Of a DNA stretch of 64,000 bases, positions 16,463-44,219 are shown piece by piece. Position numbers and translations under genes: made by a program. The first letter of the stretch is position 1; each line of letters opens with the position of its first letter. Origin of the DNA: Trypanosoma brucei (Eukaryota); contig CM000208.1 of assembly GCA_000002445.1 (NCBI GenBank), forward strand, positions 1,024,001 to 1,088,000. Reading direction: 5' to 3'. The notes below the pieces were generated by a model. The model ran no database searches. It saw only the letters and a program-made list of their open reading frames with translations, and was not told the DNA's origin.

Positions 16463-17929
16463 CTACCTTCCGACTAACCACGTCATCTCATCCGCGTAAA
16501 CGCAATTGATGTTAGTCGTTTCATCATACGGCTTGCACACTTGATGAGTAGCGCGAGCGGGGTAGCGGATGCCAAATGTAACGCCTTTGCCTTGCTCCAC
16601 GCCTTCAGCAATGGTACCATTCTTGACATTATACATTAATTTCGAAGACTCTTGCCCCTTAAGATATGCACTTTTGTTGTAATCACCACGATAAAACACC
16701 GTACTTCGACCTGGCGACAGCGGCCTGATGTTGTAGAAGTTGGAACCGGTGCTTGTTTGGTCACAAAACCTCTTAGCCGCTCCGAAACCTGGAATACAGA
16801 AGGATTTGACGGGCTTCACAGCATCAATGTTGGGATTGTACATGGGGCCACCACCGGTGACGGCAACTTCTCGTGATTTCATAAGAGCCTTAGCAGCGGC
16901 ATGCAAATCATACGGATGTTGTGCAAAGCGACCGCCTCTAACTCTGTGTGGCACTTTAGAGAGATCATACGAGCCAGGTCCAACTACATCACTCGTAGAC
17001 GGTACCAACAAAACGAAGGAACGAGGTCCGAAGCTAACTCCTTTACTGTACGTGTAGTCAAAGTCAGATGGCAGGTTACCGTCTGAAACGGGCTCTTCCT
17101 TCACAACTTCGGCCTCACTCTTTGGTGTTCGCACCGTCGGTTCACGGAATATCGGTGTGCGTGTCACCGTCTTCGTCATGATGCGGCTCACATCCCCATA
17201 TTGGGCAGGTCCCGGGCCACGGTGAATAGCAACGGAGGGAGTGGGTGGGCGAACACCGAAGGTGGGTACGTCAACGATGAACCGCTTTGTCCTTGCAATG
17301 CGTGCGGCAATTGTAGTGGGGTCGTCATAACTCCCTGGTCCAGGACCCGTATCCGTTTTATGCTTCCTCTCAATGGCTGTAATTATTTCCCTCCCCTTAG
17401 GCTTTTCGTCGCCAAATCGGGGCACATCATATGTTGCGGGTCCCGGTACGATGTCGCGGGTGGTTAGCAGTTTTGTCCGCTTTCCAAACGTCGGTCCCTT
17501 CCCTGGGGCTCCAAAAGTGGAAGGAAAATCATAGTCACCTGGTCCTGCCAAATTAACCGGCGTGATATCCTTTAATTTCCCGTAAATAGAGAACGCGGGA
17601 GCATCAGCTAAGTATTTCTTCGTTTCGCTTACGCTGCGTATGGCCGCTCTACCCTTTGACGCGCTGCGTGAAGGCCTCTTAGGCGAAACGCGATCGGCAT
17701 TTCCTGGAACAGCTGCAACCGGTGGGCGGAGGATTGTCGAGCGGCAGTCTCCAATAGTTGATGGTATACAGTATTGGCCCGGACCTACCCCAGAACCCGA
17801 CTGCCGTATCGGATATTTTCCAAGAATTGAGCGTTTTGGTGCATCAGAAACGGTTAGGTCGTAATTCATCGGCCCAGGGCGATGGTCGCGTAGCCGAAGG
17901 TGCGCCCACTCAGTGAACCCACCGACCAT
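16463..17929 (-). CDS. STPGR (sperm-tail PG-rich repeat; SHIPPO/ODF3-like) protein, likely flagellar/axonemal
   Basis: At least 8 copies of the PGPGxYD motif: GPGQYCIPS, GPGDYDFPS, GPATYDVPR, GPGPGSYDDP, GPGPAQYGD, GPGSYDL. Start assigned to ATG at rc of 17927-17929 (MVGGFTEW...). The 86 upstream codons in the track translate poly-T UTR-like sequence. Confidence 0.7.
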   Translation of the reverse strand: MVGGFTEWAHLRLRDHRPGPMNYDLTVSDAPKRSILGKYPIRQSGSGVGPGQYCIPSTIGDCRSTILRPPVAAVPGNADRVSPKRPSRSASKGRAAIRSVSETKKYLADAPAFSIYGKLKDITPVNLAGPGDYDFPSTFGAPGKGPTFGKRTKLLTTRDIVPGPATYDVPRFGDEKPKGREIITAIERKHKTDTGPGPGSYDDPTTIAARIARTKRFIVDVPTFGVRPPTPSVAIHRGPGPAQYGDVSRIMTKTVTRTPIFREPTVRTPKSEAEVVKEEPVSDGNLPSDFDYTYSKGVSFGPRSFVLLVPSTSDVVGPGSYDLSKVPHRVRGGRFAQHPYDLHAAAKALMKSREVAVTGGGPMYNPNIDAVKPVKSFCIPGFGAAKRFCDQTSTGSNFYNIRPLSPGRSTVFYRGDYNKSAYLKGQESSKLMYNVKNGTIAEGVEQGKGVTFGIRYPARATHQVCKPYDETTNINCVYADEMTWLVGR

Positions 17930-18186
17930 TGCTACTATCTCCCTTTTTTTCACAAAAAAAAATCTCTTGTCAATCTCCAACTCCTTTCTTCGGCCGTAAT
18001 GGAAACATGAAAGAAAAGGGGGGGAAATTGTGGGACATTGACGCTGAGACCGATACACTAAACAATGACTTAAGGACAGTTCAACAGTAAAGATAAAAAA
18101 GGGGCGCCTTTTCAAACATACAAAAATCAGAACATAAGTAAAATTATTTAAAATTAGCGGGCACAACACACACCAACAGCCAAGCA

Positions 18187-18957
18187 TTAAGCAGTCTCCT
18201 CCTGCGCCTCTTCAACAACGCGTGCCTCGCCCTCAGCGGATGTGGGAACTTCACCGTGAGCGGCAATGAGGGCCTGAGCGTCGAACTTGGGTGTACGAAT
18301 AACCTTCACCTTGCGGATGCGCAGGTCACGCAGCGGAATGATCGGGTTGCAACGTTTCGCCAAACGGTCACGCAGAATGTTGCGGGTCAGCAAAGACACA
18401 GCATCGTTGATGTCCAACTTGGCCAGGCGCCGGCGAATGATGTTGGTAGCGCGCATGCGCACCCACTTCACCAGGCGTGTCTTGGCATAACAGTTCTTCG
18501 ACAGCTGATTCTCCTGCTTCTTGGTGAACGCAATCAAAAAGAGGCGGAGACCATAACCATCGGCAGTTTTCGCCTCTACGGTAGCCTCAATTGTTGTGCA
18601 CCACTTGCGCAGAAGGTAATAAACACGATCAGAGGTCATGTCCATCCCGTGAAACTGGGTCAGTAAGTTGCGACCTTGCACCTCTTGAACAGTGAACTTC
18701 ACCTTGCGGTAAGCATCGTCTTCATTCTGAGTTTTGTTCAGATCAGCCAAGTTACCCTCGTACACACGACCGCGCAGGAAATCTGCGGCAACCTTGGTAC
18801 CCTGCGTTTTGTTGCAAATGGTCTTGGCGAACTGACGCACCTCGAAGTTCTTGGGCGCAACTACGTCATACCATTCCTTGCGGCTCATCGCCTCCTGCGC
18901 CTTCTTCTTGCCGCGCTTCCCGCCCTTGCTGATGCGCTTATTCTTCCCGAGAGTCAT
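18187..18957 (-). CDS. RPS3A: 40S ribosomal protein S3a (eS1), tandem copy 1
   Basis: [19 protein letters not shown]...WYDVVAP matches the eS1/S3Ae N-terminus. 257 aa. ATG at rc of 18955-18957, stop TAA at 18187-18189. Confidence 0.9.
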
Positions 18958-19267
18958 GGCTGCCTCAAAGAGAGTCGAGTGTGTAGGTGCTTCATGTAAC
19001 ACAAAAATTATCGAAAATGTAAAGAAAAAAAGGGGAAAGAAACATAAATTGAACAAAAACATGACATGTCATGACACGACTGGCAAAGACCACAAATATG
19101 AAGGAGAGAGAGCACCCGACACGGGCCTATCGCCCCTAGTCCTGACAACAGTAACGTATTGGTAGAGAAGAAAATGAAAAAGAACAACACATGGCACAAA
19201 AAAGCCAATGAGAGAAAACATATGGATACCAGTGCCAACGCTGGAACTGCATACCGGCAGCCAAGCA

Positions 19268-28679: not shown

Positions 28680-31340
28680 CAGCGTGTTCATCTTTTTTTT
28701 TGTTTTTTTTTGTTTGTGGACGTTTGGGTGTTTGTATTTGTTGTTCTCTCCTCTCCTGTTCTCTCAGGCTACAAATCTCAATACATTCTCAGTCGTAACA
28801 GTAACAAGGCAGGAAAAAAAAAATTCAAAGAAGAGAAATGATTAAAAAAAAAAAAATAAAAACACACACTCACACACACAAGGATTGGAGATGGGGGAAA
28901 AGAAAAAAAAGAGAAGAAGTAATGCGACACGAGATGACATGAAAAGATGAGAGAACAAACAACCACCCGACTCTGCAGGAACAAAATCACAACATCACCT
29001 TACGCTTACTCACTATCCCTTAGCAATTCCTTTTTCACTTTCTTTCCTTCCCTTTTTCTGTGTATTTTTTTCTTTTTTTTTTCCTTCTCGTTCCTATTCT
29101 TTTTTACTTTTCCTCCACATCTTTTTTGTTTTTTTTTAATTTTTCTACACCCACTTTTTTTTTTGTTGTTACCTTCCTTCTCATTTTTGTTCGTATTTTT
29201 TTTTTTAAAAGTATTAAGTAAACCAACCTCCCTCATTTCATCTTCATCATTCCCTTCTTCCCTCATAAAAATAAAAAGCAAAAAAAAAAAAAAAAAGAAA
29301 ACACACACACACAAGAAAAAAAAGAAAGAAAGAAAAAAAAAGAAAAGAAAAAAGAAACAAACACATAAAGAAACACAGGGGTAACACTGGAGGTCCCGTG
29401 TACTTCCTTATTCTTTTTTTTTCTTTACTCTTCTTGTTCTTGTTCTTGTTCTTGTTGTCGTATTTCATTTCGGTTACCGTTTCTTTTTTTTTTCTTTGCA
29501 TGTTTGTGTGGTTTCTCGTTCCCTTTTCTTTCTTTTTTTTCTTTCCTTCTTTTTTTTTCCTTGCTTCATTGTTTCCTTCTTTTTTTTCTTTTCTCTCTCT
29601 CTCTCTCTCTCTGATATTTCTTCTTCTTTTGTTGTTGTTTTCCTCCTTTTTGTATGTTTTCTTCTTCCTCTTTTTTTTCTTCCCCCTTTTTAGAAAGAAA
29701 AAAACACACACACACATATACACACTCACGTACACACACACAAAAAGAAAAAAGAAAAAAAACAACTTCTTTTTCCCTTTTTTTTTTCGCCTTCTCCTCC
29801 ACCTTTTCATGTACTCATTTCTCTACTGATGCGCATGCGCTTGTACACACACACACAAAAATATATATAAATATATATAAATATATATGTATGTGTGTAT
29901 GTAAATATATGTGTGTATGTGTTTTCAATAATGTTATTAGTGGCGTGTTGGTGTTAGTGTTGGTGCTGCTGATAGAATGTCTCCTCTTCTTTTATTCCTT
30001 TTTTTTTCTTCTTTTCGTTTCTTATTTTATTTTTTTTTTCTTTCTCCCTCGCCATCTTTATGTACTTTTTTCTTTTCCTTTTCCTGAACATCGCTCTTTT
30101 TCAATTTGAATTTCACTTGTTCAGGTATTTGGTCACTGAAACACTTTTTTTTTCCTATTTTACTCTTTTTTTTTTCTTCTTCTTCGCATGTTGATATATT
30201 TTTATATTATTCTCCTTTCGTACTCCTAATTTTTATTTTGTTTATCACAGAACCGGACTTTCCCTTTTTGTGTGCGTGTGATTTTTTCTTTTTTTTTCTT
30301 ATTTATTTATTTATTTCCTTTCCCTTTTTCGCTTTTTCTCCTTGCTTTGTTTTTACATTTTTTTCCTTTTTTTTTTAGTTTTCTCAAACCCCCTCTTCCG
30401 TCCTCACTTTTGCTCTCAATACATTTGGCTCGTTTCTTTGTTTTTTTGGGGGGGAAATTATTTTTTAAATTCCTTTTTTTTTTTTACTGTTTTGTTTTGT
30501 GTTATTTCGGCAGGATTATTCTTTCCCTTTTTCTTTTTTGCCTCACTCTCTTTTTTTTTCTTTTATCCCCTTAAATCCTATTACCTCTTTTTTCTTTTTT
30601 TAAATGCGAATGTACAAAAAATATTCCACACCCATCTTCTATGAGGGGAAAGAAAAAAAAATTAACTCTTCATTGATTTCCTCACGTATTCCCGTTTGTT
30701 GAGAGCGTCGTTCCCTTTTCTTTTCTTTTTTTAAATTATTTATTTCCTTTTATTTATTTATTTCCCCACACCCTCCCTCCCTCCCTCCCTCCCTCTTTTA
30801 TTCGTTCCTCTCTAATCCACTTTTTCCTCTTTCTCTTCTTTGCTCCGCTGCTTCATCCTTCCCATTCACTCGCAAATTCCGACACGACACTCATAAAGTT
30901 AAAAAGCATGTGAGTGGGTTTTTAAAGAGAAATTAAAAAAGAAAAACGTAGAAAAGAGAAAAAAGAAAAAACGATCCAACCAAATACTCAAACGGAAATT
31001 TTAAAGAAAAAAATACACAAGCGGAGACAACAATGACGACATAAAGAGGAAATGAAGTAGAAGGAGGCACGAAGTAAAGCATGAGAGCGGGGAAGGGGAA
31101 GGGGGGAAAGAAAAAAAAACAAAACAGTATGAAACAAACAACTTTAACACCAAGACACGTAGACCGAAACACAAACAGACAAGCACAAACACAAACACAC
31201 ATATAAACATAAACATACACATACACAAACATATATATATATATATATATATACAGACAGGCGGAAAAAGAAAAACAAAACACATAAGATAGGCACAAAC
31301 ACGTACACCGGAAGCACATGAAATGAGTCCATACAGGAAA
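28680..31340. repeat. Low-complexity mosaic of alternating homopyrimidine (CT-rich) and homopurine (GA-rich) blocks with embedded (TA)n, (TG)n, (CT)n, (CCCT)n
   Basis: Approximate block map: 28990-29260 T/C-rich, 29265-29390 A/G-rich, 29400-29690 T/C-rich, 29960-30660 T/C-rich, 30770-30795 (CCCT)n, 30930-31340 A/G- and (AC)-rich. ORFs called here are translation artefacts of these blocks. Confidence 0.85.
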
Positions 31341-36597: not shown

Positions 36598-36913
36598 GTG
36601 ACTTTACCTCACCTTTTTCACCCTTCACCAAACTTATCAATTAAAAATGTGTTCTCCCCACCTCACTTAATGCTAAATACTTCAGTGTATTAGAAAGGAA
36701 CAGCAGTGAGAATATCGATCGCGTCGTCGAGAGCAACCGTCTAAATCAGTTAACTAACAGTAACATGCATAGGCGAGAGGTAAGTTGATTGGGTGACGTT
36801 AGCGTAAACACCGCAGCAGTTGTACAACACCCCGGTGCGTAATCCCCAAACCCCCATACAACAGCGTATGCATGCGGGGGGAGGGGAACCAAGAAAAAAA
36901 AAACACAACTTCC

Positions 36914-37603
36914 TCACCATAGACGCCACCATATCGGATAATGACTGGATAAGTCGTATGGGAGTCCATGAGACTTCTGTAACTGTTGTGCACGCCTATA
37001 GAAGTGGCGGTGTGCCACATGACTTCGCTCCTCGTAAATGGTGTGACCAACACCCGCCCCAGCGGCACACCGGGCTAAAACAACGATATTTGCCGAGGCC
37101 GGGACCGGTACCTGATAAACGTTCTGAGAACCAAAGACCCGTTGGCACATCTGCACAAAGTCGGGATCGGATTTGGGAAGGTTAAACGCTGCAACGCCGA
37201 TCGAGGAGAGTGCCTCGCGGCACAACTGAAGAAAAATAAGGGACGACATGAAGGCGGGTGGATCGCTCCCGACAAAAAGATCCACAAAAAGCACGTCGTA
37301 ACACGTCGCCGGTTGTACTTGGTATCGGGACAGCGGCTTATGCTGGTTTCCGTTAGTGGGATAATCACCACCTTTGAAACTCACAGAAGTTCCAGAATGC
37401 GTGCGGCTAGAAACCAATTCATCAAAGGTACTATTACTCTCCCCAGTGCCAGTTGAAGATCCAACAACATCCTGAAGGAAGGCGGCACCGTCCTGAACAT
37501 GACAGGTGACACTCCCGCCTTGCATTTTCCTTCCCCATCCCATGTCTTCAACTGCAGCCCGAAAGCACTGTTGCTCAGCATCAACTAAGTCGCATAATGT
37601 CAT
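36914..37603 (-). CDS. C-terminal half of the same SAM-MTase/PABS-like protein (separate ORF in the -1 frame, ATGA overlap)
   Basis: Begins MTLCDLVDAEQQCFRAAVEDMGW. The acidic LVDAE sits ~20 aa after the upstream GxGxG, where the motif-II acidic residue of Rossmann MTases/spermidine synthases is expected. Later, YDVLFVDLF resembles the post-II strand. This frame is open for 33 codons upstream of its ATG. Confidence 0.45.
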   Translation of the reverse strand: MTLCDLVDAEQQCFRAAVEDMGWGRKMQGGSVTCHVQDGAAFLQDVVGSSTGTGESNSTFDELVSSRTHSGTSVSFKGGDYPTNGNQHKPLSRYQVQPATCYDVLFVDLFVGSDPPAFMSSLIFLQLCREALSSIGVAAFNLPKSDPDFVQMCQRVFGSQNVYQVPVPASANIVVLARCAAGAGVGHTIYEERSHVAHRHFYRRAQQLQKSHGLPYDLSSHYPIWWRLW

Positions 37604-38463
37604 GTGAGAAATGCTGCTGCGATGAAAGAAGGAGAGAACCCTCCACCAACACCGAGGACAGCGACCCGCAGCCGAGGTAGCGGAGAGGGAAGTAGCAGCA
37701 GAGCACTAAGCATGATGCGCAGATATGGCGCACCTAAATAACTGGCGTCAGCGAGGCAGTTCATTGAGGCCGGTGCCAAGGGGTCGCAGCGAACAAGCGA
37801 TTGTTGCGTGACTCGGTTGCTCCAGCGTCGCAACAAAGCGTCACTGTCATTTCGTACCTCATTATGTGACGTCTCAATAGTCATGGAGGTATATTTAACT
37901 GTACCCGGGGGCCAAGAGGAGGAAGCGATGAACATTGAAGAGCCCACACGATTACCGACGGTATCTTCAACAGCGTCATCATCATCACCGTTGAAGCCCT
38001 TGACGCTACGGGTGGAGACGTCACCGCGAGGTGCGTGTGCATCACCCACAACTTCCCTCACAAGATACAACTCGTTGACCTCTGATACTGAATCACTGTG
38101 GCCAGCAGTGGTGTATGTTTCATTTGAAAAACATGCAAACAGCTTTTTCATGACCCCTCCTCTATCACTGCGTCCACAATTTCCATTTTCGGCATCACTA
38201 CCGCGTGGCAGCAATGATTGTTCCCCTCGCCCCTTTTCCCGGACATAATGATTTGTTACAACAACATCATAACCCAAGAAGGTTTTGCAGGGGTACCGCG
38301 CATGCTCCTCCGAGTGCACAACATCCGCCTCATTAAAGAGTGGAATTTCTCTCTGCCGCAGCAGCGCAATTTCCCGGAAAATACCGATAGCAAATGTACC
38401 ACCAACGCTCGCTGCAATAAACCCCCATGCACGAGCTCCCAGTGGTTTAAAAAAATAGGGCAT
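37600..38463 (-). CDS. N-terminal half of a SAM-methyltransferase/spermidine-synthase-like (PABS-fold) protein; ends 17 aa after a GxGxG motif
   Basis: ATG at rc of 38461-38463. The C-terminal end ...LRVAVLGVGGGFSPSFIAAAFLT* places a Rossmann motif I (VLGVGGG) just before the stop. Stop TGA at 37602-37600 overlaps the next ORF's ATG. Confidence 0.45.
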   Translation of the reverse strand: MPYFFKPLGARAWGFIAASVGGTFAIGIFREIALLRQREIPLFNEADVVHSEEHARYPCKTFLGYDVVVTNHYVREKGRGEQSLLPRGSDAENGNCGRSDRGGVMKKLFACFSNETYTTAGHSDSVSEVNELYLVREVVGDAHAPRGDVSTRSVKGFNGDDDDAVEDTVGNRVGSSMFIASSSWPPGTVKYTSMTIETSHNEVRNDSDALLRRWSNRVTQQSLVRCDPLAPASMNCLADASYLGAPYLRIMLSALLLLPSPLPRLRVAVLGVGGGFSPSFIAAAFLT

Positions 38464-38895
38464 ATTGCCCTCCGGGAGATGTCGCCTAACTTTTCAAAAG
38501 AAAAAAATAGAGGAGCGGAAGTAAATATATGACGGCGCATGTGCAGAGGAAGTTGTACGTAATTCAACTGATGCGGATAACACAAGAGAAAAACATAGGT
38601 TAGTAACACCAACAGAAGCTTACAAACAACACGGCGATAGATGAAGAAGAGATGGAAGAAGGGAAGAAGGGAAGGAGGAAAAACAAAAACAAAAACGCCG
38701 CCGCACCGGCGTCAACAAAACCTAAATAAACAAGGGGGAAAACGTTTTAGCACCGACTGCACCAAATCCAAAACACATCAGTCGCCTTGTCCACTTCCAA
38801 CAAGGCCTTCCACCGAGTAAATCAATTTACGTTCCTTAGACTGAAATGCATGGTTTCTCTTCTCACTACTTTTGGTCACTGTTGCATTTAACCAA

Positions 38896-39942: not shown

Positions 39943-42900
39943 GGCAGCGACTCAAATAGGCGATGATGCTGGAAGTGGGAAGTACTAGGAAAAAAGGAAA
40001 ATAAAATAAAATAAACTTGGAACAGATAATAAATGCAAGCCTCCTAATAACCTAAATGGAATGCGCAATAGTTTCTTCGTTGGGTTTTAACCCGGCTCCT
40101 AATCTATGGGTATACAAAGGAAGCATGGTAGAAGGCAAACGGTGCAGGGCACACTCGACAAGAGAAATATATATATTTCTTTAAAAAAAAGAAAAGAGGA
40201 GGTGCGTACGTCTCTCTGATCAGAAAATAAAGTCAAAGTCGTGAGAAGATGTGAAAGATGAGTGGGTAAACACCTCCATCACATTCGCTTCGATGAGGAA
40301 TAAACAAGGAAGCAGTAAGGGGTGCAAAAGAGGGAGCAAAAACTAAAAGGGAGAAAGTGATGAAAGAAATGATGGAAGTTGTCCAGAAACACTGGCTGAG
40401 CTACAAAACAGTGGTTTCCAGATGATTAAATCCGGCTCGTATTTATTTATTTTTTTTCCTTGGTTCCGTTTCGTTTCGTTTGGTTTTGTTCCCTTTTCTC
40501 TTTTCTTTCTCTTTTCTTTTCTTTTCTTCAATTTCCCTCCTTTACTCTCTCCCCCCCCCATACTCCTTCAACTCAGTTATTTCCTCTCTACCATTCTCTT
40601 CACTTACGTGCTAATGCCGAACTAAATACAGGCATACACTGAGAGAAGAAAAGGAACGGAGTAATGAAGGGGCCGTGAAAGAAAGGAAGAAATAAAAGAA
40701 AAATAAAAGAAAGAAAGAACAAAAACTTTGCCTTCGCTCCGAGTAAAACAAAAACGTAATGGCAAAAGTTATCGAACAAAAAAAAAAACTCCCCTACACT
40801 CCTCTACAGCAGTGGTGAATAAGATACGCACCACACAAACACACAAAAAAAAACCATATATACTCATTTGTGCGAATCGTTACATCATGCAAACACTTCC
40901 TCATTGTATTTTGTACTTGTGCATTTGCTGTTATTGTCTCTTGTTTTTTCCTCTCGTTTTTCTGCTTTTCTTTTTCTTTTCCTTTTGTTTTGTTTTGTTC
41001 CTTTTCTTTTTTTTTTATTTTCTCAACCTGTCACCTTTCTACCAGTCTGCAGTCATCGATGATGTTAACAATTTCTGTCTCCCCATTGCGTTGGTCATCT
41101 CCCACGCACAAGTAACATCACCAACACATTTTTTCAGATGTGTACACCATTGAGTTTCACGACAAATTTGAAAAAAAAAATTGGAAAGAAGTCAAACATA
41201 AATAAGGTCAGAACTTTTTTTAAAAAAAAAAGCTAAAAAGAATAAAAAGAAAAGTATGAAGGAAGCCACAATACATACAACCTCGCACAAAACACGCACG
41301 AAGAAGGGAAAAGAAATAATCAAAAAAAAAAGAAGGGCGCAGGCAAAAACAAACGTTGTCAAACCTCCAGAGGCAGGTAGGAAAATATACGGTGGTAGCC
41401 GAATTAACGAAACCAGTAAAACAATACTGGTCCTCAATTTTAAAAAAAAATTATAATGATAATGATAAAAACAGTAGATATAACATCAAAACCAAGAGAA
41501 AGGAAGAAAAAAAAAAGAAGAATAAACATGTAAAACTCTCATTACACAAAATACGGCGGGTCCCAAGAGTTCCTGCCCTAATAGCCTGCTTAATTGTAAC
41601 ACCACATTCATTCCTCTCATTTGTGTACGTGCATCTGCTTTCACTTAAGTCAGGCAATCGCTTCTCTGCCAGTGTGAAGATGATAATTAATAATAATAAA
41701 TAATAATAACTGGAATCAGTATTAGCACTATTGGTAATAGAATATGCGTGACATCATATTCCTATTTCACGCTAGCGCCCCAATATCTCATACTACTTTA
41801 TATAGTTGCCGCTACTAGTCACTACTAATTATTATCATTATTATTGTAGCACTTCACTCTTATACTGACTCTTTCCTCCTTTTTCCCGCTCTCTTTCTTC
41901 AATACGTCCCTCTAGCTTCTCCTCTTCTTTTTGGGTTTTCATTCATTTTTTTTATTTTTTCGTTTTGATGGGGATGATTTTAAACCTTTAAAACATACAC
42001 ACACACACACCACAAACTACTTGTTCGTCACCAACCATTTATATTTTTTTTTTCCAACCATTGGACAAATCACTATGCGCTGCTGCCATTATGCTAATAA
42101 ATGCTTTACCTTTTACTCATTGCTCAGTTTGTTCGCTTGTTTCTTTGTTTGTACTCATTTTACTTTTGTTGTTGTTATTTTATTTTCATTTTTTTTTTCC
42201 TCCACTCGAGGTCTACCTTCACTTTTCACCCTTTTTGTTAATCCCTAAACACAAATAAAAGGCAAGGAGAGCAGAAATCAACACCAAATATTTTCTTTTC
42301 AAAAAAAAAACAAAAAAGAAAGACCTCCTTTACTCCTACATAATATTTTCTCTTCACATTCATTTGGATCTCCTTTCATTTTCTCTTCTGTCACCGCACT
42401 TCCTTTTTTTCTTTTCCTTCTTCTAACATTGAATTGTTTCGATCCAGTTTTTTTTTTTTAAATATTTTCATGAGATAATACAACACGATATATCTCTTTT
42501 AATATACGAATATGAAATTGCTCACTTTTTGTGCTTTTCCCCATTCTATGCACTTCATTTTTATTACGCATTCATAAATGCACACACAAAAGTGTCGTAT
42601 TCCGCCCTCAGCGACACATGCGGTTACAACAGCGGCGGTCAAAAGGAAGAAAAAGTAAAAGTAAAGTAAAAAAAAAAAACGAAATCACACAAAAACAAAT
42701 GCCAGCATAAACCCCCGCAGATATAAATTTATACAAGTTAAGAAAAAAAAAAGAATGCAGACGACCTGGAAAGTTTAAAAAAAAAACATTCCTTCAGATG
42801 CGGTTCAGAACACGAGAGGAAAAGGAGAAAGGGAGGAATGAGACACACACAAACAGCAACAAAAGAGAAAATAATAGAGTAAAAGAATAAATTGAAAAGT

Positions 42901-44219
42901 CCTACTGCCGTCCACACAAAGTAATGTGGTGAAAGGATCCCTAAAAGCAAACAAGTGTTTTGTAAAGTCACCCATGGAAAAGTGATACAACAACAAGTGA
43001 AGGTAACAAACCTTCACAGCCCCAACACAACATGGAACTCAGGAACAGTAGAGCAAAAAAAAGAAAAAGAAAAAAGAAAAAAGAAAGAAAATGCCTTAAA
43101 GCGTCGGAACAAACAAACTAAAGTGTGGTATCACCTCACCGTTCAAGTTGTTGCTGTGGCCGTACGCTCCCAACATGTCTTTCCTTTCCCCTTCTCTCTA
43201 ATGTGATCCATCTATCCCCATTCTCCGTTCCACACACACACAAGAAAAAAAAGAAAAAAACGCCACCAAAAAAAAGCCTCCCACCCCTTCCCCCCCCCCC
43301 GCCTCCGGGAACTTCATCGCTAAATAATAAAATACCGCTGCGGACTCTACTGACAAAGTGGGGAACCGGCTGCTTAAGAACTGCACCATTTCTTGACCAT
43401 TTTTTTTTTCCTTTGAACTCTGTTGTTTTGTTTCCATCTCCTGGGATTGTCGAAAAAACGGGAGCGAATACATGGCATATGAAATATTGAAGCGAATATA
43501 TTTATATATTTTATATATGGCAAGAGCATTGAGGTAATGTAAGAAGGTGATTAATTAGAAGGAAAAAGAAAACAAAGAAACAAACACACGTGTACGAAGC
43601 ACCACAGTCGCGCCTTCCTATAGCCCCAGATCCCAGTCCCCACCCAATTCACACAGTTCCTTCTTATCGTACTCTACATTAAATGAAATAAATAAACAAA
43701 TAAAACGAACCGCATACATCCCTTTGTCCTTTTTGAGGCCGTTTATTTAAATCCATACCCCCGAGTACCTCCAAAACAGGGTGTCCTCATATCCCCCTCA
43801 CAGCAAGCGAACATATATAAAGATAGATGAAGGTAAATACATTATTGATATAGCGCTTACGTAACTCGGGACGGCACTTTTGTCCAAATGCACCTCCCTC
43901 TCGTATGGTGTCGGAGATGGAAAGTGTTTGAGAAGGAGAGAAGAAAAAAAAAAGAAAAAAAAGATCCCGCATTACATTTAAGGATTTTAATGTGCTACTA
44001 CCACCGCGTTCACCAGGGAGAGGAAGGGAAAACGGTGTAAAATCGTACAACAAGGGGAGGAATACACAAAAACGGTACAAATCAAACAAATGGGAGACGG
44101 AAGGGAGTGGGAAGTCTAAGGGGATAAATTATATATATATATATATACCCTCGCAACCACGCCATAACTAATACGGAAAGAAAAAAGGAGGAAGAGCGCA
44201 ACGCATGCTGCTATTATTA

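What the first reader, a model, noticed from the sequence alone, without database searches (positions are those of the whole stretch)
36914..38463. Two ORFs sharing an ATGA junction look like one methyltransferase-fold gene broken by a frameshift
The upstream ORF (37600-38463) ends ...LRVAVLGVGGGFSPSFIAAAFLT*, with a Rossmann GxGxG motif I 17 residues before the stop. The downstream ORF starts on the overlapping ATG with MTLCDLVDAEQQ.... This places an acidic LVD exactly where the SAM ribose-binding residue (motif II) follows motif I in spermidine-synthase/Rossmann methyltransferases. The second frame is already open 33 codons upstream of its ATG. A 4-nt overlap of independent genes is not expected in a trans-spliced polycistronic eukaryote. 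A single indel in the 37600-37710 interval would fuse the two into a ~515-aa PABS-like protein. This is either a sequencing error in an intact gene or a genuine pseudogenisation of a polyamine-pathway paralogue.
Basis: partly seen in the sequence, partly recalled or inferred. Interest (0 to 1): 0.6.

Follow-up and report, generated by a model that had tools for sequence, protein, structure and literature searches.

The report
One methyltransferase gene split by reference errors
The two overlapping reading frames are the halves of one conserved trypanosome methyltransferase gene, broken in this reference sequence by a dense 108-base cluster of small insertions, deletions and substitutions that every sister strain lacks, so it is most likely a sequencing error and not new biology.

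Summary
ORF1 (37600-38463, minus strand, 287 aa) and ORF2 (36914-37603, 229 aa) share an ATGA. The window is Trypanosoma brucei brucei TREU927 chromosome 10, and the ORFs are Tb927.10.4030 and Tb927.10.4020. In T. b. gambiense, T. equiperdum, T. b. equiperdum and all other kinetoplastids found, the orthologue is one protein of 450-630 aa (517 aa in the T. brucei group). T. evansi reads carry the same corrections.

The break is not a single indel. About ten edits lie within 37530-37637, while the rest of the gene differs from T. equiperdum by one SNP. Two of them shift the frame: a +1 insertion and a 5-nt deletion. All three frames carry genuine protein sequence across about 60 nt. Swapping in the 112 nt of T. 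equiperdum restores a 517-codon ORF.

The intact protein has an N-terminal membrane helix and a class I SAM-methyltransferase domain. Its closest solved relative is the C-terminal domain of human METTL13; spermidine synthases are more distant. The break falls between motif I and the Post I acidic residue.

I rate a reference sequence error at about 0.75 and a genuine TREU927 lesion at about 0.2. Interest is low.

The parts
36914..38463 (-). The whole gene: TREU927 copy of a pan-kinetoplastid gene (517 aa when intact), membrane-anchored METTL13-C/spermidine-synthase-fold methyltransferase
   Evidence: The fused query covers 100% of single orthologous proteins. After repair it translates to 517 aa, equal to the T. 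equiperdum protein except H122Y.
37600..38463 (-). ORF1 = Tb927.10.4030 / Tb10.70.3250 (287 aa): N-terminal membrane helix, beta-rich N-domain, beta1 and motif I. The last 12 residues are largely frameshift products.
   Evidence: Identical to XP_822651.1. The gene ID comes from Carnes 2015 S4.
36914..37603 (-). ORF2 (mechanical, 229 aa). The annotated Tb927.10.4020 is the 209-aa version starting at the second ATG (36914-37543). It carries beta2 to the C-terminus of the methyltransferase domain.
   Evidence: Location Tb927_10_v5:1061818-1062447(-) from Carnes 2015 S2.
37530..37637 (-). Lesion cluster: 17 differing alignment positions (about 10 edits) relative to T. equiperdum; 108 nt here against 112 nt in intact strains
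   Evidence: Binomial p = 3.6e-19 counting positions and 2.8e-11 counting events.
37616..37637 (-). Block 1: +1 (extra T after GGG), -1, A>T, +1, T>C. It turns GGGSLPSFLQQ into GGGFSPSFIAA and leaves a net +1 shift.
   Evidence: Alignment. The same three 1-nt indels are homozygous in T. evansi reads at chr10 1062525, 1062537 and 1062541.
37588..37589 (-). Site of the 5-nt deletion (GGACC is present in all other strains). This is the second frame-shifting event, and it moves the reading into the ORF2 frame.
37530..37537 (-). Block 3: frame-neutral block (either -1, two C>G and +1, or 5 substitutions) that turns MGMRKK into MGWGRK
37590..37619 (-). Third-frame stretch that encodes the genuine peptide QQHFSHDIMR. 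Neither ORF1 nor ORF2 reads it.
   Evidence: translation, compared with the orthologues
37639..37653 (-). Motif I GVGGG (G271-G275). G273 aligns with METTL13 Gly503.
37580..37588 (-). Post I / motif II LVD. D296 aligns with METTL13 Glu524, which is required for activity.
37490..37492 (-). D326 codon, the DG motif after beta3. It aligns with METTL13 Asp551 (adenine amine contact).
37280..37282 (-). D396 codon, Post II. It aligns with METTL13 Asp575, which is required for activity.
38353..38436 (-). Predicted N-terminal hydrophobic helix (residues 10-37), read as a membrane anchor
   Evidence: AlphaFold2 model
38654..38683 (-). 30-nt polypyrimidine tract upstream of the ORF1 ATG, the likely trans-splice acceptor region of the single gene
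   Evidence: assigning it a splicing function is inference
36876..36903 (-). Polypyrimidine tracts just after the ORF2 stop, in the intergenic region before the next gene. No such intergenic region exists between ORF1 and ORF2.

Best explanation
Window 36914-38463 (minus strand) is one gene of Trypanosoma brucei brucei TREU927 chromosome 10, annotated as two genes, Tb927.10.4030 and Tb927.10.4020. When intact it encodes a 517-aa protein conserved in all kinetoplastids. The protein has an N-terminal membrane helix, a beta-rich N-domain, and a seven-beta-strand SAM-dependent methyltransferase domain. The closest solved relative of that domain is the C-terminal domain of human METTL13 (MT13-C, which methylates the alpha-amino group of eEF1A); spermidine synthases are more distant relatives.

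In this reference sequence, about ten small edits within 108 nt (37530-37637) disrupt the frame exactly between motif I (beta1, glycine loop) and the Post I acidic residue (beta2). A net +1 insertion sends the ORF1 frame into a TGA. A 5-nt deletion 30 nt further on moves the reading into the ORF2 frame. The ATGA overlap is an accident of these shifts.

Shown: it is a single gene; the lesions are as described; the ancestral state is intact; the fold and catalytic residues are as stated. Inferred: the cluster is most probably an error of the 2005 Sanger reference (low-quality base calls) and not a mutation carried by the parasite. Also inferred: the real TREU927 protein is an active amine-directed methyltransferase whose substrate is unknown.
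For: Single gene:
- Orthologues are single proteins of 450-630 aa in 30 or more kinetoplastid lineages. They are 517 aa in T. equiperdum, T. b. gambiense and T. b. equiperdum.
- DNA of DAL972, three independent gambiense-type read assemblies and T. equiperdum OVI is identical and intact across the junction.
- T. evansi Illumina reads carry the same three 1-nt corrections in 88-96% of reads.

Lesion anatomy:
- 17 of the 18 differing positions against T. equiperdum fall within 108 of 1550 nt. The 4 kb around the gene has only about 3 other SNPs.
- Replacing the 108 nt with the 112 nt of T. equiperdum gives a 517-aa ORF. Two edits alone are enough to restore the frame.
- The disrupted segment is the most conserved part of the family: G271, G273-275, L277, F280, L294, V295 and E298 are invariant.

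Family:
- The profile hits 5WCJ at E = 4.6e-9 and spermidine synthases at about 0.05.
- The AlphaFold2 model has pTM 0.71. The top Foldseek hit is 5WCJ with TM 0.75 and rmsd 3.0.
- G273, D296, D326 and D396 align with METTL13 Gly503, Glu524, Asp551 and Asp575.

Artefact reading:
- Ten events on a haplotype that is otherwise almost identical cannot have accumulated stepwise.
- Several are +/-1 indels a few bases apart that cancel each other, as happens with mis-spaced base calls.
- The rest of the gene shows no decay.
- TREU927's own Illumina reads are reported to disagree homozygously with the reference at 58 CDS indels.
- Another TREU927 gene pair, Tb927.2.5860/5870, has already been shown to be one gene.
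Against: - No TREU927 read data could be inspected. The table that holds the answer (Carnes 2015 S5) is stored truncated within chromosome 1.
- The split survived into assembly version 5 of a heavily curated reference.
- A clean 5-nt deletion is not the most typical base-calling error.
- The gene-position index does not contain TREU927, so the absence of the truncated ORFs there is uninformative.
- Methyltransferase activity, substrate and localisation are untested.
- No Pfam model reaches E <= 1 on the protein.
Confidence: 0.75

Rival explanations
1. Genuine lesion in TREU927. A single complex mutational event (error-prone repair or a template switch) on one or both alleles destroyed the SAM-binding core, making this a very recent strain-specific or allele-specific pseudogene.
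For: The sequence is what the reference says, and it persisted through assembly versions. The reference represents only one allele at heterozygous loci. Allele-specific premature stops are tolerated in T. brucei.
Against: - Ten edits lie in 108 nt, against 1 SNP in the other 1.44 kb.
- No donor or template sequence for the variant stretch exists in the 64-kb window.
- All five other Trypanozoon lineages examined are intact.
- The target is the invariant core of a gene conserved from Trypanosoma to Leishmania and beyond.
- The pairs of cancelling +/-1 indels look like base-calling noise.
Confidence: 0.2
2. Two independent genes that truly overlap by ATGA and are each expressed.
For: They are annotated as two genes in TREU927. 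A 15-nt pyrimidine run followed by AG lies at 37624-37638, 20 nt upstream of the ORF2 ATG.
Against: - Every orthologue is a single protein.
- There is no intergenic region between the ORFs.
- Neither half holds a complete SAM-binding site.
- The residues flanking the junction are frameshift artefacts, while the conserved peptide sits in a third frame.
Confidence: 0.02
3. Programmed ribosomal frameshifting or RNA-level correction restores a full-length protein from the sequence as written.
For: None beyond the fact that the frames overlap.
Against: - Two shifts of different size (+1 and -5) would be needed within 35 nt.
- Sister strains encode the protein in a plain ORF.
- Kinetoplastid U-insertion/deletion editing is mitochondrial (established knowledge), and the differences include changes that do not involve U.
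Confidence: 0.01

Closest known systems
Human METTL13 C-terminal domain (MT13-C, PDB 5WCJ), the N-terminal methyltransferase of eEF1A
   Same: Best sequence-profile hit (E = 4.6e-9) and best fold hit (TM 0.75, rmsd 3.0). Both share the GGGSLPxF motif I. Counterparts exist for Gly503, Glu524, Asp551 and Asp575.
   Different: There is no MT13-N lysine-methyltransferase domain. Instead the protein has an N-terminal membrane helix and a roughly 220-residue beta-rich, partly disordered N-region with no Pfam match. The Post II motif is DLF, not DVD. Identity is only about 19%. The substrate is unknown.
Spermidine synthases / PABS aminopropyltransferases (Pfam PF01564)
   Same: Same fold: many Foldseek hits at E around 1e-8. 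The D of the DG motif and the Post II Asp are shared. More distant relatives of the family do match PF01564.
   Different: The Asp of GGGDGG aligns with a Gly (G274) in the kinetoplastid protein. In spermidine synthases that Asp accompanies use of decarboxylated SAM (established knowledge). No Pfam hit reaches E <= 1, and TM scores are only about 0.5. T. brucei has a separate bona fide spermidine synthase (own knowledge). This protein is therefore not a polyamine-pathway enzyme on present evidence.
Tb927.2.5860/Tb927.2.5870, a TREU927 gene pair shown to be one gene (Cosentino et al. 2021, PMC8445201)
   Same: Adjacent TREU927 gene models that are a single gene in another T. brucei assembly.
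   Different: That case was supported by a long-read assembly of Lister 427 and by TrypTag localisation. For the present pair no such published support was found.

Membership tests
Class I (seven-beta-strand) SAM-dependent methyltransferase, spermidine-synthase-like branch | Motif I glycine-rich loop after beta1 | tested here: met
   GVGGG at 37639-37653. G271 and G273-275 are invariant in 29 homologues, and G273 aligns with METTL13 Gly503.
Class I (seven-beta-strand) SAM-dependent methyltransferase, spermidine-synthase-like branch | Post I acidic residue at the end of beta2, about 20 residues after motif I | tested here: met
   D296 (LVD, 37580-37588) aligns with METTL13 Glu524 and is conserved in at least 90% of the family.
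Class I (seven-beta-strand) SAM-dependent methyltransferase, spermidine-synthase-like branch | Asp of the DG motif after beta3, and Post II Asp after beta4 | tested here: met
   D326 aligns with Asp551 and D396 with Asp575. Both are invariant.
Class I (seven-beta-strand) SAM-dependent methyltransferase, spermidine-synthase-like branch | Rossmann-like fold | tested here: met
   The AlphaFold2 core has pLDDT 85-95. Foldseek finds 5WCJ at TM 0.75 and spermidine synthases at about 0.5.
Class I (seven-beta-strand) SAM-dependent methyltransferase, spermidine-synthase-like branch | Match to a curated Pfam methyltransferase or Spermine_synth model | tested here: not met
   No Pfam family at E <= 1 for either half or for four full-length orthologues. 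More distant relatives do match PF01564.
Bona fide spermidine synthase (aminopropyltransferase) | Asp within motif I (GGGDGG), linked to use of decarboxylated SAM | tested here: not met
   The family has GGGSLP. In the alignment to 6QMM the synthase Asp aligns with G274. The role of the Asp is established knowledge and was not tested here.
Bona fide spermidine synthase (aminopropyltransferase) | Aminopropyl transfer to putrescine | not testable with these tools
   Needs an enzyme assay.
METTL13 orthologue | Dual-domain architecture: MT13-N lysine methyltransferase plus MT13-C | tested here: not met
   The N-terminal 260 residues are a membrane helix plus a beta-rich region without any methyltransferase match. 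True METTL13-like proteins in the search show Methyltransf_11 plus Spermine_synth (P0098).
METTL13 orthologue | Methylates the N-terminus of eEF1A | not testable with these tools
   Needs biochemistry.
Genuine pseudogene | The disruption is present in independent reads of the same strain | not testable with these tools
   The stored copy of Carnes 2015 S5 Table is truncated. TREU927 is absent from the gene-position index.
Genuine pseudogene | Signs of relaxed constraint elsewhere in the gene | tested here: not met
   Only one SNP (38100, H122Y) lies outside the 108-nt cluster relative to T. equiperdum.
Reference-sequence error | Sister strains are intact and agree with one another at the site | tested here: met
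   DAL972, three read assemblies and T. equiperdum OVI (DNA), T. b. equiperdum (protein) and T. evansi (reads).
Reference-sequence error | Dense cluster of small mixed edits, including +/-1 indels that cancel locally | tested here: met

The most novel reading that the evidence does not exclude
The 108-nt lesion cluster is real in TREU927, on one or both alleles. The genome reference strain, which completes the whole life cycle (own knowledge), would then be a natural loss-of-function mutant for a pan-kinetoplastid, membrane-anchored METTL13-C-like methyltransferase. The lesion would have been created in one step by a complex clustered mutation, and the enzyme would be dispensable.
Probability: 0.2. 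Interest if true: 0.4.

Novelty: new member of a known kind. Interest (0 to 1): 0.15.

Why it matters
The main value is practical. Tb927.10.4020 and Tb927.10.4030 should be treated as one gene in TREU927-based proteomics databases, RNAi and tagging designs, and orthology tables. Peptides from the SAM-binding core (GGGSLPSFLQQHFSHDIMRLDLVD) cannot be identified with the current gene models.

A secondary point concerns the gene itself. It belongs to an uncharacterised, kinetoplastid-wide family of membrane-anchored methyltransferases related to the METTL13 N-terminal methyltransferase domain. No Pfam model captures this family, so it may deserve functional study.

If the lesion were real, it would show that the enzyme is dispensable in a strain that can complete the life cycle.

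Tried and rejected
- Exact-product look-ups for ORF1, ORF2 (229 aa and 209 aa) and the 682-aa neighbour found nothing. The control with the neighbouring dehydrogenase returned only T. equiperdum. The index therefore lacks TREU927, and these negatives say nothing.
- The three Logan assemblies carrying the intact gene turned out to be gambiense-type, 100% identical to DAL972, and not TREU927.
- Full-text searches for Tb10.70.3250, Tb927.10.4020 and Tb927.10.4030 returned no paper.
- The gene IDs were not found in the stored supplements of Cosentino 2021, TrypTag 2023, Jackson 2010 or Nilsson 2010.
- Parsons 2015 (the ribosome-profiling re-annotation) is not held in the library.
- Carnes 2015 S5 Table, which compares TREU927 Illumina reads with the reference, is truncated within chromosome 1 in the stored copy.
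- A search for a donor copy of the variant stretch within the window, testing gene conversion or template switching, gave only chance matches of 10-15 nt.
- Rfam gave no hit anywhere in the window.
- A second apparent ORF junction at 18187 was checked and dismissed as mechanical read-through after a ribosomal protein gene.

Full report
**Observation.** On the minus strand, ORF1 (37600-38463, 287 aa) ends ...RLRVAVLGVGGGFSPSFIAAAFLT*. ORF2 (36914-37603, 229 aa) begins MTLCDLVDAEQQ on the ATG of a shared ATGA. The GVGGG motif starts 17 residues before the stop. Neither half matches any Pfam model at E <= 1.

**Identity of the locus.**
- A fusion of the two ORFs retrieves a 517-aa T. equiperdum protein at 97% identity and 100% coverage. 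It also retrieves single proteins of 450-630 aa from T. congolense, T. vivax, T. cruzi, T. rangeli, T. theileri, Leishmania, Leptomonas, Phytomonas and others.
- The 90% cluster of the best hit holds three 517-aa proteins: T. equiperdum OVI, T. b. gambiense DAL972 and T. b. equiperdum. It also holds two fragments from T. b. brucei TREU927: XP_822651.1 (Tb10.70.3250, 287 aa, identical to ORF1) and XP_822650.1 (209 aa, ORF2 read from its second ATG).
- Supplementary tables of Carnes et al. 2015 (PMC4288722) give Tb927.10.4020 = Tb927_10_v5:1061818-1062447(-) and assign the upstream ORF to Tb927.10.4030. This places the window at about chr10:1,024,905-1,088,904.

**Anatomy of the break.**
- I fetched DNA for DAL972, for three independent read-set assemblies (ERR7929157, ERR7929162 and ERR7929163; these are gambiense-type) and for T. 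equiperdum OVI. All five are identical to each other and uninterrupted across the junction.
- Against T. equiperdum, the window differs at 17 alignment positions inside 37530-37637 and at only one position (38100) in the remaining 1.44 kb of the gene. No other coding-region cluster occurs in 21.6 kb of aligned sequence. The other clusters there are intergenic microsatellite or homopolymer length changes.
- The concentration is far beyond chance: p = 3.6e-19 counting positions and 2.8e-11 counting about 10 events.
- Block 1 (37616-37637) reads GGG-T-TCTCT-CC-T-TCTTTC-A-TC-GCAG where the other strains read GGG-TCTCT-T-CC-A-TCTTTC-TT-GCAG. That is +1, -1, a substitution, +1 and a substitution.
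- Between 37588 and 37589, five bases (GGACC) are missing.
- Block 3 (37530-37537) reads TGGGGAAGG where the others read ATGCGCAAG. This change does not alter the frame.
- The net difference is 108 nt against 112 nt.
- As a result, genuine protein sequence runs in the ORF1 frame up to GGG, in a third frame for QQHFSHDIMR (37590-37619), and in the ORF2 frame from LVD onwards.
- The ORF1 tail FSPSFIAAAFLT is largely an artefact of the shifts; only P278, S279 and F280 coincide with the intact protein. The ORF2 head MTLCD and the ATGA overlap itself are artefacts as well.
- Replacing the 108 nt with the T. equiperdum sequence yields a 517-codon ORF equal to that protein except H122Y. Deleting one base at 37623 and re-inserting GGACC is already enough to restore the frame.

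**Independent confirmation from the literature.** Carnes et al. mapped T. evansi STIB805 Illumina reads to the TREU927 reference. They list three single-variant 1-nt indels in Tb927.10.4030:
- 1062525 G>-, 44 of 49 reads, Ile281fs
- 1062537 ->A, 46 of 48 reads, Pro278fs
- 1062541 A>-, 44 of 50 reads, Phe276fs

These correspond to window positions 37621, 37633 and 37637, which are the block 1 edits. Five Trypanozoon lineages therefore carry the intact form.

**What the gene encodes.**
- In a 29-sequence alignment, the segment hit by the lesions is the best-conserved part of the protein: LRVAVLGVGGGSLPxFLQ...DLVDxEP.
- Sequence searches against solved structures find only the C-terminal domain of human METTL13 (5WCJ), at E = 2.5e-5 with one sequence and 4.6e-9 with the profile. 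Spermidine synthases score about 0.05.
- An AlphaFold2 model of the intact protein (mean pLDDT 71.6, pTM 0.71, core above 85) shows a helix at residues 10-37, a beta-rich N-region and a Rossmann core with beta1 at 265-270, a helix at 276-284 and beta2 at 289-296.
- The top Foldseek hit against the PDB is 5WCJ (TM 0.75 on the target, rmsd 3.0), followed by many spermidine synthases at TM about 0.5.
- Jakobsson et al. 2018 (PMC6109062) describe MT13-C as a new type of N-terminal methyltransferase distantly related to spermidine synthase. [quoted passage not shown]
- By the alignment, these residues correspond to G273, D296, D326 and D396. All are invariant or nearly so.
- The break therefore separates motif I (in ORF1) from Post I, the DG motif and Post II (in ORF2). 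Neither fragment could bind SAM on its own.
- An exhaustive profile search finds 31 representatives at E <= 1e-30, most of them close to full length. Below them lies a long tail of shorter proteins that match Pfam Spermine_synth, including proteins with METTL13-like architecture.
- The family lacks the Asp of the synthase GGGDGG motif. I therefore file it as a divergent METTL13-C-like methyltransferase and not as a polyamine enzyme. Substrate and location are unknown. The membrane anchor is inferred from the model.

**Error or real?** I could not inspect TREU927 reads. The table that compares TREU927 Illumina reads with the reference is truncated in the stored copy. The gene-position index does not contain TREU927, as a neighbour-gene control showed.

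The indirect evidence favours an error in the 2005 Sanger reference:
- Ten events sit in 108 nt on a haplotype that otherwise differs from T. equiperdum by about 3 SNPs in 4 kb. They cannot have accumulated stepwise.
- Several are pairs of +/-1 indels that cancel locally, typical of mis-spaced base calls.
- There is no decay elsewhere in the gene.
- The target is the invariant core of a gene kept throughout the kinetoplastids.
- No donor sequence for a conversion event exists in the window.
- TREU927's own reads are reported to disagree homozygously with the reference at 58 CDS indels and 814 non-synonymous SNPs.
- One other TREU927 gene pair has already been shown to be a single gene.

Against an error: the split persists in assembly version 5, and a clean 5-nt deletion is a less typical base-calling error. 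I put the error reading at about 0.75, a genuine (possibly allele-specific) lesion at about 0.2, and two real genes or recoding at 0.03 or less together.

**Verdict.**
- It needs correcting in its details. There are multiple lesions, not one indel. The affinity is to METTL13-C and not to the polyamine pathway.
- This is an ordinary annotation and sequence-quality issue in a reference genome and of low scientific interest.
- Its practical consequence is that Tb927.10.4020 and Tb927.10.4030 should be merged.
- As a side note, the gene family itself is uncharacterised.

Noticed in passing
window 36914-38463 and homologues P0001-P0059: The intact protein belongs to an uncharacterised family found across the kinetoplastids. 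It combines an N-terminal membrane helix, a beta-rich N-domain and a METTL13-C-like methyltransferase domain. No Pfam model matches it and no member has a solved structure. The key catalytic residues are conserved, so it is probably an active enzyme with an unknown substrate.
   Followed up: partly
window 16463-19062 (-): Two long ORFs abut with a 1-nt overlap at 18187. The upstream one is a 40S ribosomal protein S3a-like gene. The start of the downstream ORF is a read-through of low-complexity intergenic sequence. This is a mechanical ORF artefact, not a second split gene.
   Followed up: yes
window 39943-44219: A 4.3-kb stretch with no ORF of 150 aa or more lies between the short-chain dehydrogenase gene and a 557-aa class I/II aminotransferase gene (serine palmitoyltransferase-like, by my own recollection). 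(TG)n tracts near 42011 and 43243 differ in length from T. equiperdum. There is no Rfam match.
   Followed up: partly
window 29247-29810 (-): This 187-aa ORF corresponds by coordinates to Tb927.10.3980. It is a pure low-complexity (K/R/F-rich) translation of a purine/pyrimidine tract and is not called as a gene in T. equiperdum. T. evansi reads show heterozygous indels in it, and T. equiperdum shows large length differences nearby (29250-29353). It is probably a spurious gene model.
   Followed up: partly
TREU927 chr10 1104552 and 1104627 (Tb927.10.4190, outside the window): Carnes 2015 S4 lists two indels in this gene, each with a single variant allele at about 87% of T. evansi reads (Pro64fs and Gly89fs) and 75 nt apart. 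This may be another compensated frameshift or reference error of the same kind.
   Followed up: no
window 37624-37638 (-): The block 1 edits create an uninterrupted 15-nt polypyrimidine run followed by AG, 20 nt upstream of the ORF2 ATG. It superficially resembles a trans-splice acceptor. In the intact strains an A interrupts the run. No evidence of its use was available.
   Followed up: no
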